A model generated the notes under the pieces. It searched no databases, was not told the DNA's origin, and worked only from the letters and a program-made list of their open reading frames with translations. Source: Escherichia phage UPEC06. Taken from it: a DNA stretch of 64,000 nt. Below, one piece after another: positions 661-13,194 of the stretch. Both the position numbers and the translations under genes were made by a program. Location: sequence record MW250786; one strand, written 5' to 3'. Numbering within the stretch: position 1 is the first letter of the stretch; every line of letters starts with the position of its first letter.

Positions 661-684
661 TTAAAAAGAGGGGCAATATGCCCC
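661..684 (-). terminator. putative rho-independent terminator (minus strand)
   Basis: GGGGCA-ATA-TGCCCC hairpin followed on the minus strand by a T-run, directly downstream of the 727..1758 gene. Confidence 0.4.
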
Positions 685-726
685 AGCGCCGATAATAATA
701 TAAAATTAACTAACCAATGTCAACAC

Positions 727-1758
727 TTATTTTGCAACATGACCAGGAATTAACTGGCGATGTTGAACAAACCCTTTCAGGTTTCCACTCCAGAAGTTAC
801 CGTCACGATCTACGTGAGTAATACCTTCCTGCCAGGTACTGAATTGAGTTGGGTGGTTAATTGACCACAAGACTTCACCATACTCATTGGTGTGGTGGTA
901 CTCTTGTTCAATCTCCTTCGCCTGATGCTCGAATGGAGAAGCGTGGACCTTTTTACCGGATACAAGTTTGGCATAAATATCCAAAGCTTTATCTTTTGTA
1001 TTGTTAAGACGACGATAACTTACCTGCCCACAACAAGAGGAAGAGATAGACAAAGCCTCTTCTTCAGATAGCATAATGTGATTTCCATCTTCATCCTGTA
1101 CACAATACCCTGCGAAAATATGTCCATCACCCAAAGGTCCAGAATCGAAGCAATGATCTACGTAAGGCGTATGCCACACCCCAGGCTGCAACAATTCTGG
1201 AGTAGAAGCTTTATAAGCTTCGTGCATTTTCTTAGCCAATACTTCGATCGTTGGGTCTGCATCTGCATCAACACGTAACCAGAAGAAGTTTTCAAATTCT
1301 GTTGCTGTAACGATAGTCTTCATCATCTGGAACGGCTCGATCAATCGGTTAGCAATCTGCTTATGGAACCCCGCTGCCTCGAAACGTTCTGCCCACTCGC
1401 AGGCATTTTCCGCAGCCTTGGCCCAAGCTTCTCGTCCGGTACAGTACAGTTCATGACACACGCCACTTGTATCTTCCACCCAATCATACCATACTTTACC
1501 ATCATGTTCTGTTCCTTTATCCTGCATACCAGGTTGGTTAGCACCAAATCGAACAGGCATTGCCATATTTTCACGGATCAGTTTAACCATTGTCTTGATC
1601 GGCACTGCACGAGAAGACATTGCATTTCGGCTAAACAGTCGGTGCGTCATAAGTTCTGAATGAATGAATCGAGGATAGGTCAATTCAAACGTGGTGATAC
1701 GAGCTTTACTACGGTAGCCAACAGAATCTGCAATAATACGGGCTTCAATCATGGACAT
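727..1758 (-). CDS. putative flavin-dependent thymidylate synthase (ThyX-like), divergent
   Basis: THRLFSRNAMSSRA resembles the ThyX RHRx7-8S signature; protein is longer than typical ThyX; next to nucleotide-metabolism genes. Confidence 0.4.
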   Translation of the reverse strand: MSMIEARIIADSVGYRSKARITTFELTYPRFIHSELMTHRLFSRNAMSSRAVPIKTMVKLIRENMAMPVRFGANQPGMQDKGTEHDGKVWYDWVEDTSGVCHELYCTGREAWAKAAENACEWAERFEAAGFHKQIANRLIEPFQMMKTIVTATEFENFFWLRVDADADPTIEVLAKKMHEAYKASTPELLQPGVWHTPYVDHCFDSGPLGDGHIFAGYCVQDEDGNHIMLSEEEALSISSSCCGQVSYRRLNNTKDKALDIYAKLVSGKKVHASPFEHQAKEIEQEYHHTNEYGEVLWSINHPTQFSTWQEGITHVDRDGNFWSGNLKGFVQHRQLIPGHVAK

Positions 1759-1774
1759 TCAAATCTCCTCTCTA

Positions 1775-1981
1775 TTAATTTAAATCTTCAACAAATTGTG
1801 GCAAGTAATCTTCAATTGGGCTAATCAAATCATTTTCTCTTACAATTTCCAAGTTAGCAAGTCTTTTCTTTGCCAAGTAAGAAATAAATTCCTTAGTATC
1901 TACCCTGTGTCCTTCTAGTGCCAACTTACCGTCAATATAAACACCTTCCCAATCTTCACCTTCGAAAAATACTATTTTCAT
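1775..1981 (-). CDS. hypothetical protein
   Basis: ORF in the leftward gene array; start/stop overlap with neighbour. Confidence 0.35.
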   Translation of the reverse strand: MKIVFFEGEDWEGVYIDGKLALEGHRVDTKEFISYLAKKRLANLEIVRENDLISPIEDYLPQFVEDLN

Positions 1982-2163
1982 TTTATTTTCCTGATTTTGT
2001 AATCAACACGAACATCATACATAACGTGAAGATACATGTCAAACATTTCTTTGCACATATCGCTTTTTACTTTGAAGGAAGCCAAAAGGCTTCCATTTTC
2101 TTTAGAAAGGATCTCTACATAATCCCCTTCCCTAACTACCCACCTTCCTTTACCACATCTCAA
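1978..2163 (-). CDS. hypothetical protein
   Basis: Small ORF tightly packed between neighbours. Confidence 0.3.
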   Translation of the reverse strand: MRCGKGRWVVREGDYVEILSKENGSLLASFKVKSDMCKEMFDMYLHVMYDVRVDYKIRKIK

Positions 2164-2765
2164 GATTCTCTCTCCAAAATAAATTCAGCAATCGATGCCC
2201 AATCGCTAGTTACCAAGTCGTAACATCCGATCTCTTCTTCATCTTGACTGAAGGGCGTATCATACTTGATTTTTACTACCTTGTCACTAAATTGATTCAA
2301 AAATTTATTACGATCATCAATGATGTAATCACCCGAAACTCCAGCCTTGTACTTTGTAGCATAAAAACCACACCCGTCTGTTCCATTTTCAAGGTCCAGG
2401 TTAGGGAAGTGTCGCTTCAAGAAACGAACCTTACTGCTAAAATGACCTTTCTTGCAATAAGAAACAAACCGAATAGGGAATCCTGCGGCATGTAACTTGT
2501 TGATTGCATCTACCGCTCCCGCAATAGGGAACATCTTATCATACAAGAAAGGATCTTCCCAATAATCATAAGGAGGGATAGCCTTCTTACAGCGATCAGG
2601 GAAGTACCGAGAAAGATTGTAATCAAAATACCCATTCTCGCTAATGTCCTTGTCCATAAGGTCAGAATCAGCCTCCATATTATAGATGCTTTCCATCCAG
2701 TGCAACCAAGGCCATCCAGAATCAACGATAGTTAAGTCAACATCCACAATGATCGCTTTTTTCAT
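2160..2765 (-). CDS. HAD-superfamily 5'(3')-deoxyribonucleotidase-like phosphatase
   Basis: N-terminal IIVDVDLTIVDS (DxDxT/V HAD motif I) and C-terminal YIIDDR motif. Confidence 0.55.
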   Translation of the reverse strand: MKKAIIVDVDLTIVDSGWPWLHWMESIYNMEADSDLMDKDISENGYFDYNLSRYFPDRCKKAIPPYDYWEDPFLYDKMFPIAGAVDAINKLHAAGFPIRFVSYCKKGHFSSKVRFLKRHFPNLDLENGTDGCGFYATKYKAGVSGDYIIDDRNKFLNQFSDKVVKIKYDTPFSQDEEEIGCYDLVTSDWASIAEFILERES

Positions 2766-3404
2766 TTACTCTTTCCCCTCTGAGAGTTTGATAATTAATT
2801 TTGCAGTTTCAGTTAGCTTACCATTAACGTTTTCAACGTCGAAATCTCTAGGTCGTGCACTTTCAGGAAAATTCTCAGAGTAAATATAATTACGAGAATC
2901 GCCTTCAAAAGTTAATTTATTACCAGTTCGTGGATCGGTACGGTGAAGACGGATCAATGTGTAATCTCCATTTACCGCCTTCACTACCGGAACGCTTTCA
3001 TGAACAAATCCACCATCAGAGCTAATAAACGTACAGGTATAACCATTCATTTCCATACTTTTCGCAATATCTTTGACACGCTTGGCAAGAGCAACACCAA
3101 AGTATTCTTCTCCGAAGAGAGGCTTCGCAACATTCTCAGAGATATGGATCAGCCAGTTACGTGGAGACACTTGTTTACCTGCAACATTGAAATATGGTTG
3201 AGGCACTTCTTTATAATCACGGTGGTAAAGTGCATCCCACAGTTCACGATTAATACCTGCAATACGAATAGCTAGATCGATAAGGGAACCTTTAAACTCA
3301 ACATGAATACCTACGTTATTATCTACCGTAACTAACTCTGCAATCTCTTTAGCAAGAGCATCTTTACCAGAAAAAGCAGGACCATTCAAATTGATAAATT
3401 TCAT
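2766..3404 (-). CDS. deoxynucleoside monophosphate kinase (P-loop)
   Basis: N-terminal MKFINLNGPAFSGKD P-loop resembling the T4 gp1 dNMP kinase N-terminus. Confidence 0.55.
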   Translation of the reverse strand: MKFINLNGPAFSGKDALAKEIAELVTVDNNVGIHVEFKGSLIDLAIRIAGINRELWDALYHRDYKEVPQPYFNVAGKQVSPRNWLIHISENVAKPLFGEEYFGVALAKRVKDIAKSMEMNGYTCTFISSDGGFVHESVPVVKAVNGDYTLIRLHRTDPRTGNKLTFEGDSRNYIYSENFPESARPRDFDVENVNGKLTETAKLIIKLSEGKE

Positions 3405-3425: not shown

Positions 3426-3451
3426 CAATAAAAAACCGCCCCGAAGGGCGG
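3426..3451 (-). terminator. rho-independent terminator (minus strand)
   Basis: CCGCCC-CGAA-GGGCGG hairpin followed on the minus strand by TTTTTATT, downstream of 3463..4557. Confidence 0.55.
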
Positions 3452-3462
3452 TTAAATCAAAA

Positions 3463-8442: not shown

Positions 8443-9087
8443 TTAATATGCCTCACATTTACCAATCATATTCATAGCTTCAGAAACATCGATAATCATA
8501 TCCGTTGCTTCGTCCCAAGCTTTCCCCAAAAGATTCTCTCCATACCAGAAACTTTCATCATCTACCATAGGGTGATTCTCATCCATACCGATCCCCCATA
8601 TACGATCTCTCGGGGAGGCTTCTACAAACTTCAAACCCTTTTTACGGTAACCCACCGCCAGTTCACGAAGATTACCATTGTCGCACATACGACTATACAC
8701 TAAACGAGTGACAATATTAAATTTATTTTCATCCCAAACCGCCTGATCAAAATTCTTTACCTTACGACCTAGCGTTTTAGCACCTTGCGGCGTTACGGCC
8801 TTGATGATCCTTTCCGCTGAATCTTTGTCACCGAAAAGCATAGCCTTTTCATACATCATGTAATGCTCACCAGTGTGGAAATAAATCCCCTTCATCTTCT
8901 GGTCGAAGTTTGAAAACGGAGAGATCTCCTGGTAATGATTACTAAAAACATCACGATAAGAATAAAAGAACACATGTTTATCAGTGACTCGCATAAAAAC
9001 TCCTATAGATCCAATGCAGATATTGAAATTAAGAATAGCACTACCGAAAGTAATCCATCCGGCGTACTGAAAAATCCAATCCAGCAC
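8443..9087 (-). CDS. NADAR (YbiA-like) domain protein
   Basis: FSNF...GEHYMMYEKAMLF...EASPRDRIWGIG aligns by eye with E. coli YbiA/NADAR signatures; first ~30 codons hydrophobic, start may be internal. Confidence 0.7.
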   Translation of the reverse strand: MLDWIFQYAGWITFGSAILNFNICIGSIGVFMRVTDKHVFFYSYRDVFSNHYQEISPFSNFDQKMKGIYFHTGEHYMMYEKAMLFGDKDSAERIIKAVTPQGAKTLGRKVKNFDQAVWDENKFNIVTRLVYSRMCDNGNLRELAVGYRKKGLKFVEASPRDRIWGIGMDENHPMVDDESFWYGENLLGKAWDEATDMIIDVSEAMNMIGKCEAY

Positions 9088-9692: not shown

Positions 9693-9941
9693 TTAATTTC
9701 CTCCTCGATCTGTGTAGTGCTGTATAATCTCATTTAAACATTTGCCTGTCAACGAAAATTTCTTAGCTACATAGCACTCAGCAATGTGTTCTTTCAAATC
9801 TTTAGAGTCTGTGTAGCCCATTTCAACAATGAAGTGACGGATCTTCGTCTTGTCCTTATCATTTAAAGAATTGAAATAATCACTTTTAGAATCAATTATT
9901 CTCATTTTCAAGTTTCCTGATCTGATAGTAAAGAGAGTCAA
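9693..9941 (-). CDS. hypothetical protein
   Basis: ORF track. Confidence 0.35.
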   Translation of the reverse strand: MTLFTIRSGNLKMRIIDSKSDYFNSLNDKDKTKIRHFIVEMGYTDSKDLKEHIAECYVAKKFSLTGKCLNEIIQHYTDRGGN

Positions 9942-10164
9942 TGATCTCTTCGTTGGCCTTAATGTACATATCCCGTAAGAAAGGTTTCAACCCATCACGC
10001 AAAATATTTCCATCACAAGCATCGTTCAGGTATGGATGGCCTAGAGCCTCCCAGGCAGGTTGATTGGTATAAGTGCCCCAGCCTTGATTCATCATCTGGT
10101 TAAGGTGCTCGATTTGTTTTATCTTAAGCTGCAAAGCTTCAATAGTAATCTGTTTAATATCCAT
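9892..10164 (-). CDS. hypothetical protein
   Basis: ORF track; overlaps neighbour, start uncertain. Confidence 0.3.
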   Translation of the reverse strand: MDIKQITIEALQLKIKQIEHLNQMMNQGWGTYTNQPAWEALGHPYLNDACDGNILRDGLKPFLRDMYIKANEEIIDSLYYQIRKLENENN

Positions 10165-10625
10165 CAGTAAAGGTCCTCAGAGTAAAGTTCTTTTTCATTA
10201 CCACCACGTTCAATACGTACTTGTCCAGCGTAAGTTGCAATAATCATTGCTTCTTCACGTGTCCAATAATTGCTATATTGGTCAATAAACCCTTGGTCAT
10301 CATCACAAACTTGTTGAGTAACTAATTGAGGTTTAACTACATCTAAAACTTCTGCCATATCTTTAGAATAATGACGAGCACCTGGAATAATAAGAGTTCG
10401 TCCATCTTTTAATTTAAAACGGTTGGCTGCGCAGACAATTCGTCGTTGATACTTTTGGTTTTCATCCCAATACAGAGTCTGCCAACAGATTTCAGGAACT
10501 TCATCTAAAACATTTTGTTCTGTATATTCACCACCGTAAGAAGCTAATTTAGCAGCCAGACTTTCCGGAGTCTCACGCGACAAAGCTTTATCTAACAGAG
10601 CTAAACGTTCTTTAAAAGTTTTCAA
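10164..10625 (-). CDS. hypothetical protein
   Basis: ORF track. Confidence 0.35.
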
Positions 10626-12417: not shown

Positions 12418-13194
12418 TTACATACCCTCCAGGTTTGCTTCAAAATAAGTGATTGGCTTCATGATCTTGCCATTCTTATCTTTAAATACTACACGATCCA
12501 TACCATCACCACCTTTTACGATGCTTCCCTTTACACCTTGATAACGGTTACGGTTACGCAGTTCAATCTGTTCAGCTTCCAAACGCAACATGGCATCAAG
12601 ATCAAAATCAGCTTCTGCAAAAAAGTAATACGTCTTGTAGAAACATTCCGTAAATTCTTTCACGGTTGGGATCTTGGAATCATTTGAATCCAAAACCTCA
12701 TTTAAAGCACGACGAGCATTAAAGTTGGAGTTCTGCATGATTGCAACAACCGCCATAACGATCCCGTTTGTATTGTCACTCTCGATAAATTGATCAAGAG
12801 TTCGATAAAGCGAAGTCAGATTATACGTACCCATATTGTCAGCAGGACAGATGTTTTCAGAACCACCTTTTAGGAAGTTGTAATATGATCCAACTACAAA
12901 CAAGTCGCAAAGTGCATCTATGATTTCCTTACGATTCTTTTTAGTTAAACCAAGATCATAAAGTTCATTGTACTCTTCCATAACAAGAGTTTTTTGGAAT
13001 TTTGAAATATCTTCAGAGAAGTCATGAAAACCACGAGCAACAAAATTCCAATTTTTTACTCGCTCTGCTGCTTCCCGAAAGAAGCTATTGCCCTTAACAT
13101 CAATCATCTCGGAAATAAAGGTTTTCTGATCAGCACTCAATTCATTGTATTTCAATTTAATCTCCTTTCGTTTAACTTGGGGGCCATTATACAT
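12418..13194 (-). CDS. hypothetical protein (weak MazG-like NTP pyrophosphatase resemblance)
   Basis: EEYNELYD...CDLFVVG loosely resembles MazG EExxEL / GDxLF motifs; speculative. Confidence 0.25.
   Translation of the reverse strand: MYNGPQVKRKEIKLKYNELSADQKTFISEMIDVKGNSFFREAAERVKNWNFVARGFHDFSEDISKFQKTLVMEEYNELYDLGLTKKNRKEIIDALCDLFVVGSYYNFLKGGSENICPADNMGTYNLTSLYRTLDQFIESDNTNGIVMAVVAIMQNSNFNARRALNEVLDSNDSKIPTVKEFTECFYKTYYFFAEADFDLDAMLRLEAEQIELRNRNRYQGVKGSIVKGGDGMDRVVFKDKNGKIMKPITYFEANLEGM

What the first reader, a model, noticed from the sequence alone, without database searches (positions are those of the whole stretch)
727..3404. ThyX-like protein longer than usual, adjacent to a dNMP phosphatase and dNMP kinase
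The ThyX-like ORF is 343 aa, longer than typical ThyX, and sits with a HAD 5'-nucleotidase-like gene and a dNMP kinase. This could be ordinary dTMP supply, or part of a thymidine-modification pathway as found in some phages. I could not identify further modification enzymes, so this is only a prompt for checking.
Basis: inference. Interest (0 to 1): 0.4.

Follow-up and report, generated by a model that had tools for sequence, protein, structure and literature searches.

The report
Phage-type ThyX in dTMP supply cassette
The long ThyX-like gene, with its neighbouring nucleotidase and kinase, is the usual thymidylate-supply cassette of rV5-like E. coli phages and not a DNA-modification pathway, but it belongs to a large, untested phage branch of ThyX whose sequence blocks are rearranged.

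Summary
All three genes exist at the stated coordinates, on the minus strand. The window is a Septuagintavirus-like (Vequintavirinae) E. coli myophage. The 343-aa protein is identical to [quoted passage not shown].

343 aa is normal for its family: about 4,900 cluster representatives, median 319 aa, and homologues in over 1,000 phage records including N4-like phages, rV5, ICP1 and Pakpunavirus.

The extra length is not a C-terminal extension. The module that lies near the N-terminus in canonical ThyX (T. maritima residues 17-59, with S30 and H53) sits here after the core, at aa 234-282. A family-specific 60-aa tail follows. The dUMP, flavin and folate contact residues are invariant. Canonical R78 and Y91 are replaced by Thr and Ala.

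Across distant phages the gene travels with ribonucleotide reductase. Within Vequintavirinae it also travels with the kinase and the HAD nucleotidase. I found no ThyA-type hydroxymethylase and no other thymidylate synthase. Vequintavirinae are reported to be exceptionally sensitive to restriction.

Verdict: ordinary dTMP supply is most likely and the modification idea is unsupported. The rearranged, biochemically untested ThyX branch is a modest enzymology lead.

The parts
727..1758 (-). ThyX-like flavin-dependent thymidylate synthase, phage 'long' form, 343 aa
1183..1758 (-). ThyX core (aa 1-192), equivalent to T. maritima ThyX residues ~57-204 plus an N-terminal strand; lacks the canonical 17-59 module
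   Evidence: hhalign: query 17-192 aligns to Tm 57-204, E 3e-5. The family profile against PDB gives the same result.
1606..1647 (-). Active-site motif T38-H39-R40-L-F-S43-R-N45-A-M-S48-S-R50-A51 (canonical R78-H-R80..S83..N85..S88-G-R90-Y91)
   Evidence: Translation. Family counts: T38 114/118, H39 118/118, S48 117/118, R50 118/118, A51 118/118.
913..1182 (-). Relocated module (aa 193-282): WHxPY linker, strands, two helices and the H272-A-S-P-F-E-H278 loop; aa 234-282 match Tm ThyX residues 17-59 (S247 = S30, H272 = H53)
   Evidence: hhalign: query 234-291 aligns to Tm 17-78, E 2.6e-5. hmmsearch: profile 217-267 aligns to chain 31-79. S247, H272 and H196 are invariant.
925..945 (-). HASPFEH motif (canonical H53-E-T-P-F-E-H59)
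   Evidence: Translation. Found at residue ~230-280 in nearly all family representatives.
727..912 (-). Family-specific C-terminal tail (aa 283-343) with the conserved W..G.TH....G..WSGN..G..Q332-x-R334 motif; includes a hypervariable patch (window 828-911)
   Evidence: Q332 113/118 and R334 118/118. No significant match to ThyX, E 0.24. The patch has no nucleotide match to A73.
1775..1981 (-). Small ORF, 68 aa, unknown function
   Evidence: phrog_19048, E 3e-6; annotated in A73.
1978..2163 (-). Small ORF, 61 aa, unknown function
   Evidence: phrog_4903, E 6e-20; annotated in A73.
2160..2765 (-). HAD-superfamily NT5C-like 5'(3')-deoxyribonucleotidase, 201 aa
   Evidence: Pfam NT5C 34.2 bits against cutoff 24.8. 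DxDxT and DD motifs. Homologues in 650 phage records, some annotated deoxyribonucleotidase.
2766..3404 (-). P-loop dNMP kinase-like protein, 212 aa
   Evidence: PHROG 139, E 7e-34. P-loop GPAFSGKD. Homologues in 1,518 phage records, widely annotated dNMP kinase.
3434..3453 (-). G+C-rich hairpin plus T-run (terminator-like) between the exonuclease gene and the kinase gene
670..723 (-). TTGACA-17-TATTAT promoter-like site (695-723), then a hairpin plus T-run (670-684), directly after the ThyX stop codon
   Evidence: rV5 has an annotated sigma-70 promoter at the equivalent place.

Best explanation
This is the thymidylate branch of the phage's own dNTP-supply module.

Inferred pathway:
1. The ThyX-like flavoenzyme methylates dUMP to dTMP with methylene-tetrahydrofolate, FAD and NAD(P)H.
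2. The P-loop dNMP kinase phosphorylates dTMP, and probably other dNMPs, to the diphosphate.
3. Host NDP kinase completes dTTP.
4. The NT5C-like HAD phosphatase most likely trims or balances the pyrimidine dNMP pool. Its substrate is unknown.
5. In close relatives the aerobic and anaerobic ribonucleotide reductase genes lie immediately downstream, beyond the start of the window.

The DNA made is most likely canonical apart from methylation.

The ThyX belongs to a large phage-borne branch. In it, the module carrying the flavin and folate contacts S30 and H53 has moved from its canonical N-terminal position to the C-terminal side of the core. The canonical R78 and Y91 are replaced by Thr and Ala.

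Shown here: the genes, the fold, the block order, the residue conservation and the synteny. Inferred: the enzyme activities and the canonical DNA.
For: Fold and family:

Active site:
- By alignment to T. maritima ThyX, R90, R147 and R174 (dUMP binding and activation), S88, N85, N169, H79, S30 and H53 are invariant or nearly so (R50, R138, R162, S48, N45, N157, H39, S247, H272). Their roles are taken from PMC11940539 and PMC8316439.
- Inteins sit at six or more sites inside these motifs in family members, as expected for essential active-site segments.

Genomic context:
- Order in rV5 is kinase, HAD, small ORF, ThyX, then RNR Ia, glutaredoxin and NrdD. The order is the same in A73.
- ThyX lies next to RNR in Pakpunavirus and in the T4-like phage pf16, near nrdA in ICP1, and near dCTP deaminase in N4-like phages.
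- The kinase-HAD pair is also adjacent in ICP1.
- Hairpin terminators bracket the kinase-to-ThyX block.

No alternative enzyme:
- The A73 genome has no ThyA, FolA, Dut or Dcd homologue, so this is the only candidate thymidylate synthase.

Canonical DNA:
- Vequintavirinae are 'exceptionally susceptible' to RM systems (PMC8594841).
- rV5 shares the query's sequence sub-variant.
Against: - No member of this branch has a reported enzyme assay in the literature I could search.
- Two residues treated as mechanistically important in canonical ThyX are systematically absent. R78 stabilises FADH-. Y91 is a proposed general acid, and its mutants are 100- to 1000-fold slower.
- The protein scores 43.7 bits against NCBI's ThyX equivalog cutoff of 87.9.
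- The restriction-sensitivity data come from relatives at ~52-58% identity, not from this phage. 5-hmdU would not block every restriction enzyme.
- The substrate specificities of the HAD phosphatase and the kinase are unknown.
Confidence: 0.72

Rival explanations
1. The ThyX-like enzyme starts a thymidine-modification pathway. For example, it could release 5-hydroxymethyl-dUMP or another C5-substituted dUMP instead of reducing the exocyclic methylene. The HAD enzyme would remove dTMP and the kinase would phosphorylate the modified nucleotide.
For: - R78 and Y91, which act in flavin chemistry and in resolving the intermediate, are replaced.
- The ThyX reaction passes through an exocyclic methylene intermediate (PMC8989533).
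- HAD homologues at 28-33% identity also occur in ViI-like Ackermannviridae (phiMAM1, SeF3a), a group with hypermodified thymidine.
Against: - No downstream modification enzymes were found in the window among the non-structural ORFs scanned.
- The genus paper reports only methylases.
- Known pathways use ThyA-type hydroxymethylases, which are absent here.
- The same family occurs in over 1,000 phage records, including restriction-sensitive Vequintavirinae.
- The family associates with RNR, dCTP deaminase or dCMP deaminase, as expected for plain dTMP synthesis.
Confidence: 0.06
2. The protein keeps the ThyX fold but acts on another substrate, such as UMP as in the PolB UMP/dUMP methylase, or on a nucleic acid. 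It would then not contribute to dTTP supply.
For: - The protein scores below the thyX equivalog cutoff.
Against: - The uracil- and phosphate-binding arginines are invariant.
- Tight linkage to RNR and the dNMP kinase argues for a deoxynucleotide role.
- All five ThyX-fold hits score similarly, so PolB does not stand out.
Confidence: 0.06
3. The cassette is chiefly a nucleotide-salvage or pool-clearing device. The HAD nucleotidase and kinase would recycle dNMPs from host-DNA breakdown, and ThyX would be only loosely associated and dispensable.
For: - The kinase-HAD pair occurs without an adjacent ThyX in ICP1, about 10 kb away, and in other Vibrio phages.
- Exonuclease and endonuclease genes lie immediately upstream.
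Against: - This reading is compatible with the main explanation rather than exclusive of it.
- The kinase-HAD-ThyX order is conserved from Septuagintavirus to rV5 at ~40-52% protein identity.
Confidence: 0.12

Closest known systems
Canonical flavin-dependent thymidylate synthase ThyX (Pfam PF02511, TIGR02170; e.g. T. maritima TM0449, PDB 1O26/1KQ4; PBCV-1 A674R, 2CFA/4FZB)
   Same: - Same conserved dUMP, flavin and folate contact residues: equivalents of S30, H53, H79, N85, S88, R90, R147, N169 and R174.
- Same genomic role next to dNTP-synthesis genes.
   Different: - About 100 residues longer.
- The Tm 17-59 module lies C-terminal to the core instead of near the N-terminus.
- R78 is Thr and Y91 is Ala throughout the family.
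- It has an extra conserved 60-aa tail with an invariant Arg (R334).
- It scores below the TIGR02170 cutoff.
- phmmer of the single sequence finds no PDB ThyX at all.
Phage homologues annotated as thymidylate synthase: rV5 gp106, N4 gp30-like (PhAPEC7 gp29), ICP1 gp193, Pakpunavirus (JG005_166, Adele 137)
   Same: Same rearranged family at 38-58% identity, with the same motifs. rV5 also has the same kinase-HAD-ThyX-RNR order.
   Different: - The query has lineage-specific loop insertions.
- The query shares the 'D-A-D-P-T' sub-variant of the canonical H178-A-Q-W-E motif with rV5 and pf16. ICP1, N4-like phages and Pakpunavirus keep 'H.DAQPEI'.
Thymidine hypermodification pathways (ThyA-type dUMP hydroxymethylase + 5-HMUDK + aGPT-Pplase; phages SPO1, M6, ViI, PaMx11, phiW-14)
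   Same: A pyrimidine C5 one-carbon enzyme, a P-loop kinase and a nucleotidase-like gene lie together in a lytic phage.
   Different: - The one-carbon enzyme here is ThyX-type, not ThyA-type.
- The kinase belongs to the dNMP-kinase PHROG found in T1-like and many other phages.
- No aGPT-Pplase, PLP, radical-SAM or glycosyltransferase partner was found.
- Relatives are restriction-sensitive.
PolB UMP/dUMP methylase of Streptomyces cacaoi (PDB 4P5A)
   Different: PolB is collinear with ThyX and sits in an antibiotic biosynthesis cluster. Nothing here suggests a ribonucleotide substrate.

Membership tests
ThyX / Thy1 superfamily (Pfam PF02511) | Score above the Pfam gathering threshold | tested here: met
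   42.7 bits against 24.8, but only profile positions 60-191 match.
ThyX equivalog (NCBIfam TIGR02170) | Score above the curated equivalog cutoff | tested here: not met
   43.7 bits against a cutoff of 87.9.
Canonical ThyX | ThyX fold | tested here: met
   [not shown]
Canonical ThyX | Signature motif R-H-R-x-x-S-x-x-x-x-S-x-R-Y | tested here: not met
   The query reads T-H-R-L-F-S-R-N-A-M-S-S-R-A. The first Arg is Thr in 114/118 family members. The Tyr is Ala in 118/118.
Canonical ThyX | dUMP-binding and activating arginines (Tm R90, R147, R174) and S88 | tested here: met
   R50, R138 and R162 are invariant and S48 is 117/118, by alignment.
Canonical ThyX | Flavin and folate contacts S30 and H53 (H-x-S/T-x-x-E-H loop) | tested here: met
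   S247 and H272 are invariant and the HASPFEH loop is present, but relocated to the C-terminal third.
Canonical ThyX | Collinear order of the conserved blocks (H53 loop before the RHR motif) | tested here: not met
   hhalign and hmmsearch both place Tm 17-78 at query 234-291 and Tm 57-204 at query 17-192.
Canonical ThyX | The relocated module occupies the same place in the 3-D monomer as in ThyX | tested here: inconclusive
   [not shown]
Canonical ThyX | FAD-dependent dUMP-to-dTMP activity; homotetramer with shared active sites | not testable with these tools
   Needs enzyme assays and a multimer structure.
Thymidine hypermodification system (5-hmdU route) | ThyA-family dUMP hydroxymethylase | tested here: not met
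   tblastn with E. coli ThyA finds nothing at E<1 in the window or the whole A73 genome.
Thymidine hypermodification system (5-hmdU route) | 5-HMUDK DNA kinase plus aGPT-Pplase or other tailoring enzymes | tested here: inconclusive
   None was seen among the window proteins scanned or reported for the genus. The P-loop protein falls in the dNMP-kinase PHROG. I did not compare it directly with reference 5-HMUDK sequences.
Thymidine hypermodification system (5-hmdU route) | Non-canonical thymidine in virion DNA or restriction resistance | not testable with these tools
   Indirect only: Vequintavirinae relatives are exceptionally RM-sensitive (PMC8594841).
NT5C 5'(3')-deoxyribonucleotidase (HAD) | Pfam threshold and HAD catalytic motifs | tested here: met
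   34.2 bits against 24.8; DxDxT at aa 8-12; DD at aa 150-151. Substrate not testable.
Phage dNMP kinase (T4 gp1 / T5 type) | P-loop and family profile match | tested here: met
   PHROG 139 E 7e-34 and a GxxxxGKD P-loop. There is no BLAST-level similarity to T4 gp1, whose sequence I recalled from memory, and no PDB hit.

The most novel reading that the evidence does not exclude
The rearranged phage ThyX branch is present in N4-like phages, rV5, ICP1, Pakpunavirus and thousands of metagenomic phages. It may be a mechanistically distinct class of flavin-dependent pyrimidine C5 enzyme. With the S30/H53 module relocated and R78 and Y91 lost, it could assemble its active site differently. In the boldest version it would release a product other than dTMP, such as 5-hydroxymethyl-dUMP, so that partial thymidine replacement has been overlooked in these phages.
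Probability: 0.06. Interest if true: 0.75.

Novelty: new variant of a known kind. Interest (0 to 1): 0.28.

Why it matters
For this window, the finding can be closed: the cassette is routine nucleotide supply and no hidden DNA modification is indicated.

At the family level, a very common phage enzyme is routinely labelled 'ThyX' by homology. It differs from every solved ThyX in block order and in two catalytic residues, and I found no record of it being assayed. ThyX is an antibacterial drug target and a mechanistic model for flavin-mediated methylation. A natural variant that works without R78 and Y91 would show which features of that mechanism are dispensable. It would also give a firmer basis for annotating auxiliary metabolic genes in phage genomes.

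Tried and rejected
1. **Simple C-terminal extension.** Rejected. The C-terminal third holds the invariant equivalents of S30 and H53.

3. **The tail (aa 283-343) as a degenerate second copy of the beta3-RHR region.** 'GFVQHRQLI' resembles 'QWFRHRIAS', but hhalign gives E 0.24 against ThyX, and the tail does not align with the protein's own N-terminal region either. Not supported.

4. **A second thymidylate synthase, DHFR, dUTPase, dCTP deaminase or T4-type dCMP deaminase in the A73 genome.** None found by tblastn. Except for T. maritima ThyX, which I verified against the PDB, the query sequences were recalled from memory. Divergent homologues could be missed.

5. **BLAST-level link between the kinase and T4 gp1.** None. 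The assignment rests on PHROG 139.

6. **Single-sequence PDB searches for all three proteins.** Nothing relevant.

7. **Literature searches.** I searched for a described permuted or divergent phage ThyX and for any assay of N4, ICP1 or rV5 homologues. Only homology-based annotations turned up.

8. **pf16 paper.** I hoped it would show ThyX displacing td in a T4-like phage. It was uninformative.
Full report
**Observation.**
- ThyX-like ORF, 727-1758, 343 aa. It matches Pfam Thy1 at 42.7 bits (cutoff 24.8), but only over profile positions 60-191. It matches PHROG 85 'thymidylate synthase' at E 8e-102.
- 2160-2765 passes the Pfam threshold for NT5C, the HAD-type 5'(3')-deoxyribonucleotidase family. 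It has the DxDxT and DD motifs.
- 2766-3404 is a P-loop protein of PHROG 139, 'deoxynucleoside monophosphate kinase'.
- Two small ORFs of unknown function lie between ThyX and the HAD gene.

**Source of the window.** The window is about 96% identical in nucleotide sequence to the Escherichia phages A73, W70 and LTH01. A73 and W70 belong to the genus Septuagintavirus of the Vequintavirinae. The ThyX protein is 100% identical to a deposited protein named 'FAD-dependent thymidylate synthase [Escherichia phage UPEC06]'.

**Is it unusually long?** Only against canonical ThyX, where solved chains are 216-270 residues. An exhaustive HMMER scan found 4,912 cluster representatives at E ≤ 1e-3. Among 126 full-length representatives the median is 319 aa and the range 282-425. 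tblastn finds homologues in 1,034 phage records, including rV5-like phages, Phapecoctavirus, ICP1, Pakpunavirus, N4-like Schitoviridae, the T4-like phage pf16, and Cellulophaga and Flavobacterium phages. The query is at the upper end because of two lineage-specific loop insertions.

**What the extra length is.** It is not a plain extension.
- The single sequence finds no ThyX in the PDB by phmmer.
- A family profile finds only ThyX, and the matched stretches come in swapped order. The profile's C-terminal part matches T. maritima ThyX residues ~19-67. Its N-terminal part matches residues ~61-90 and ~159-199.
- hhalign agrees: query 17-192 aligns to Tm 57-204 (E 3e-5) and query 234-291 aligns to Tm 17-78 (E 2.6e-5). 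I verified the Tm sequence against PDB 1KQ4/1O26.
- So the module holding helices 1-2 and the H-x-S/T-x-x-E-H loop, which precedes the RHR motif in canonical ThyX, lies here after the core (HASPFEH at aa 272-278). A conserved 60-residue tail follows and has no significant ThyX counterpart.

**Active site.**
- By alignment, the equivalents of S30, H53, H79, N85, S88, R90, R147, N169 and R174 are invariant or nearly invariant across 118 diverse family members. They are S247, H272, H39, N45, S48, R50, R138, N157 and R162.
- Their published roles cover flavin C4=O and folate stacking, dUMP binding, and N3 activation. Retention of R174 argues for a uracil substrate.
- Two residues differ systematically. 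R78 stabilises the anionic reduced flavin and is Thr in 114/118. Y91 is a proposed general acid whose mutants are 100- to 1000-fold slower, and it is Ala in 118/118.
- Other family-invariant residues have no canonical counterpart: K133, H196 and R334. They are candidates for compensation, but I had no access to model coordinates to check this.
- The protein scores 43.7 bits against NCBI's ThyX equivalog cutoff of 87.9.
- Several ~520-680-aa family members carry inteins with HNH or LAGLIDADG endonuclease domains. The inteins sit at six or more different sites, all inside the conserved motifs: after H33, R40, F42, S48, R162/H164 and H272. This fits the view that these motifs are functionally essential.

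**Genomic context.**
- In A73 the order is exonuclease, kinase, HAD, two small ORFs, ThyX, two small ORFs, RNR Ia alpha and beta, PhoH, then class III RNR.
- rV5 has the same order at ~40-52% protein identity.
- In Pakpunavirus and pf16 the ThyX gene abuts RNR genes. In ICP1 it lies ~3 kb from nrdA. In N4-like phages it lies near dCTP deaminase.
- Published annotations couple it with dCMP deaminase and RNR.
- The kinase-HAD pair is adjacent in ICP1 and in other Vibrio phages.
- In the window, strong hairpin terminators bracket the kinase-to-ThyX block. A near-consensus promoter follows the ThyX stop codon, as annotated in rV5.
- The A73 genome has no ThyA, DHFR, trimeric dUTPase, Dcd or T4-type dCMP deaminase detectable by tblastn. 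This ThyX is therefore the phage's only candidate thymidylate synthase.

**Thymidine modification?** I found nothing that supports it.
- Known hypermodification routes start from a ThyA-type dUMP hydroxymethylase and need a 5-hmdU DNA kinase and tailoring enzymes (PMC8989533). The hydroxymethylase is absent.
- The other non-structural window proteins I scanned are a RuvC-like resolvase, exonucleases, an HNH endonuclease, a NADAR-domain protein, a MazG-like pyrophosphatase and a DNA ligase.
- The genus paper reports only adenine and cytosine methylases.
- The BASEL study found Vequintavirinae and relatives 'exceptionally susceptible' to RM systems and lacking effective protection (PMC8594841). 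rV5 carries the same sequence sub-variant as the query.
- Caveats: the restriction data are from relatives, 5-hmdU does not block all enzymes, and no family member appears to have been assayed.

**Verdict.** The cassette is most likely ordinary dTMP and dNTP supply (confidence ~0.7). Its 'ordinary supply' alternative is favoured, and its 'modification pathway' prompt is unsupported. The 'C-terminal extension' description is wrong in detail. The one point of interest is at the family level: a very common phage ThyX branch with a relocated active-site module and without R78 and Y91, known only from homology-based annotation. I score interest at 0.28 and rate it a variant of a known kind.

Noticed in passing
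window 8443-9087 (-): A 214-aa protein with a strong NADAR domain (Pfam PF08719, 128 bits). From my own knowledge, NADAR enzymes reverse ADP-ribosylation of DNA bases, so this may be a counter-defence gene against DarT-type systems.
   Followed up: no
window 12418-13194 (-): A 258-aa MazG-like nucleotide pyrophosphohydrolase (phrog_671, E 5e-20). It could convert (d)NTPs to (d)NMPs and feed the same nucleotide pool.
   Followed up: no
window 828-911 (-), inside the ThyX gene (aa ~283-310): A short patch has no nucleotide match to phage A73, while both flanks are 94-97% identical. The encoded loop differs completely (QEYHHTNEYGEVLWSINHPTQFSTW against QETCEDVEEGQSMVNVPWCPESW). This looks like local mosaic replacement of a surface loop.
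   Followed up: partly
family members P0012, P0013, P0018, P0028, P0069, P0101, P0102, P0107, P0145 and others (not in the window): Homologues of ~520-680 aa carry inteins with HNH or LAGLIDADG endonuclease domains. The inteins occupy at least six different sites, all within the conserved ThyX motifs.
   Followed up: yes
window 670-723 (-) and 3434-3453 (-): G+C-rich hairpins with T-runs bracket the kinase-HAD-ThyX block. A TTGACA-17-TATTAT promoter sits directly after the ThyX stop codon and upstream of the first hairpin. rV5 annotates a promoter in the same position.
   Followed up: partly
ThyX family alignment, query aa 164-170: There are two co-varying sub-variants of the canonical H178-A-Q-W-E helix motif. 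About two thirds read 'H.DAQPEI' (ICP1, N4-like phages, Pakpunavirus). About one third read 'D.DADPTI' (the query, rV5, pf16). The significance is unknown.
   Followed up: partly
L003 (ICP1): The dNMP-kinase-like and NT5C-like HAD genes are adjacent in ICP1 and in some other Vibrio phages. HAD homologues at ~30% identity also occur in ViI-like Ackermannviridae, which have hypermodified thymidine.
   Followed up: partly
window 9892-10625 (-), by correspondence with A73_184-186: A73 annotates three small adjacent genes as 'anti-restriction nuclease'. The equivalent ORFs are present in the window.
   Followed up: no
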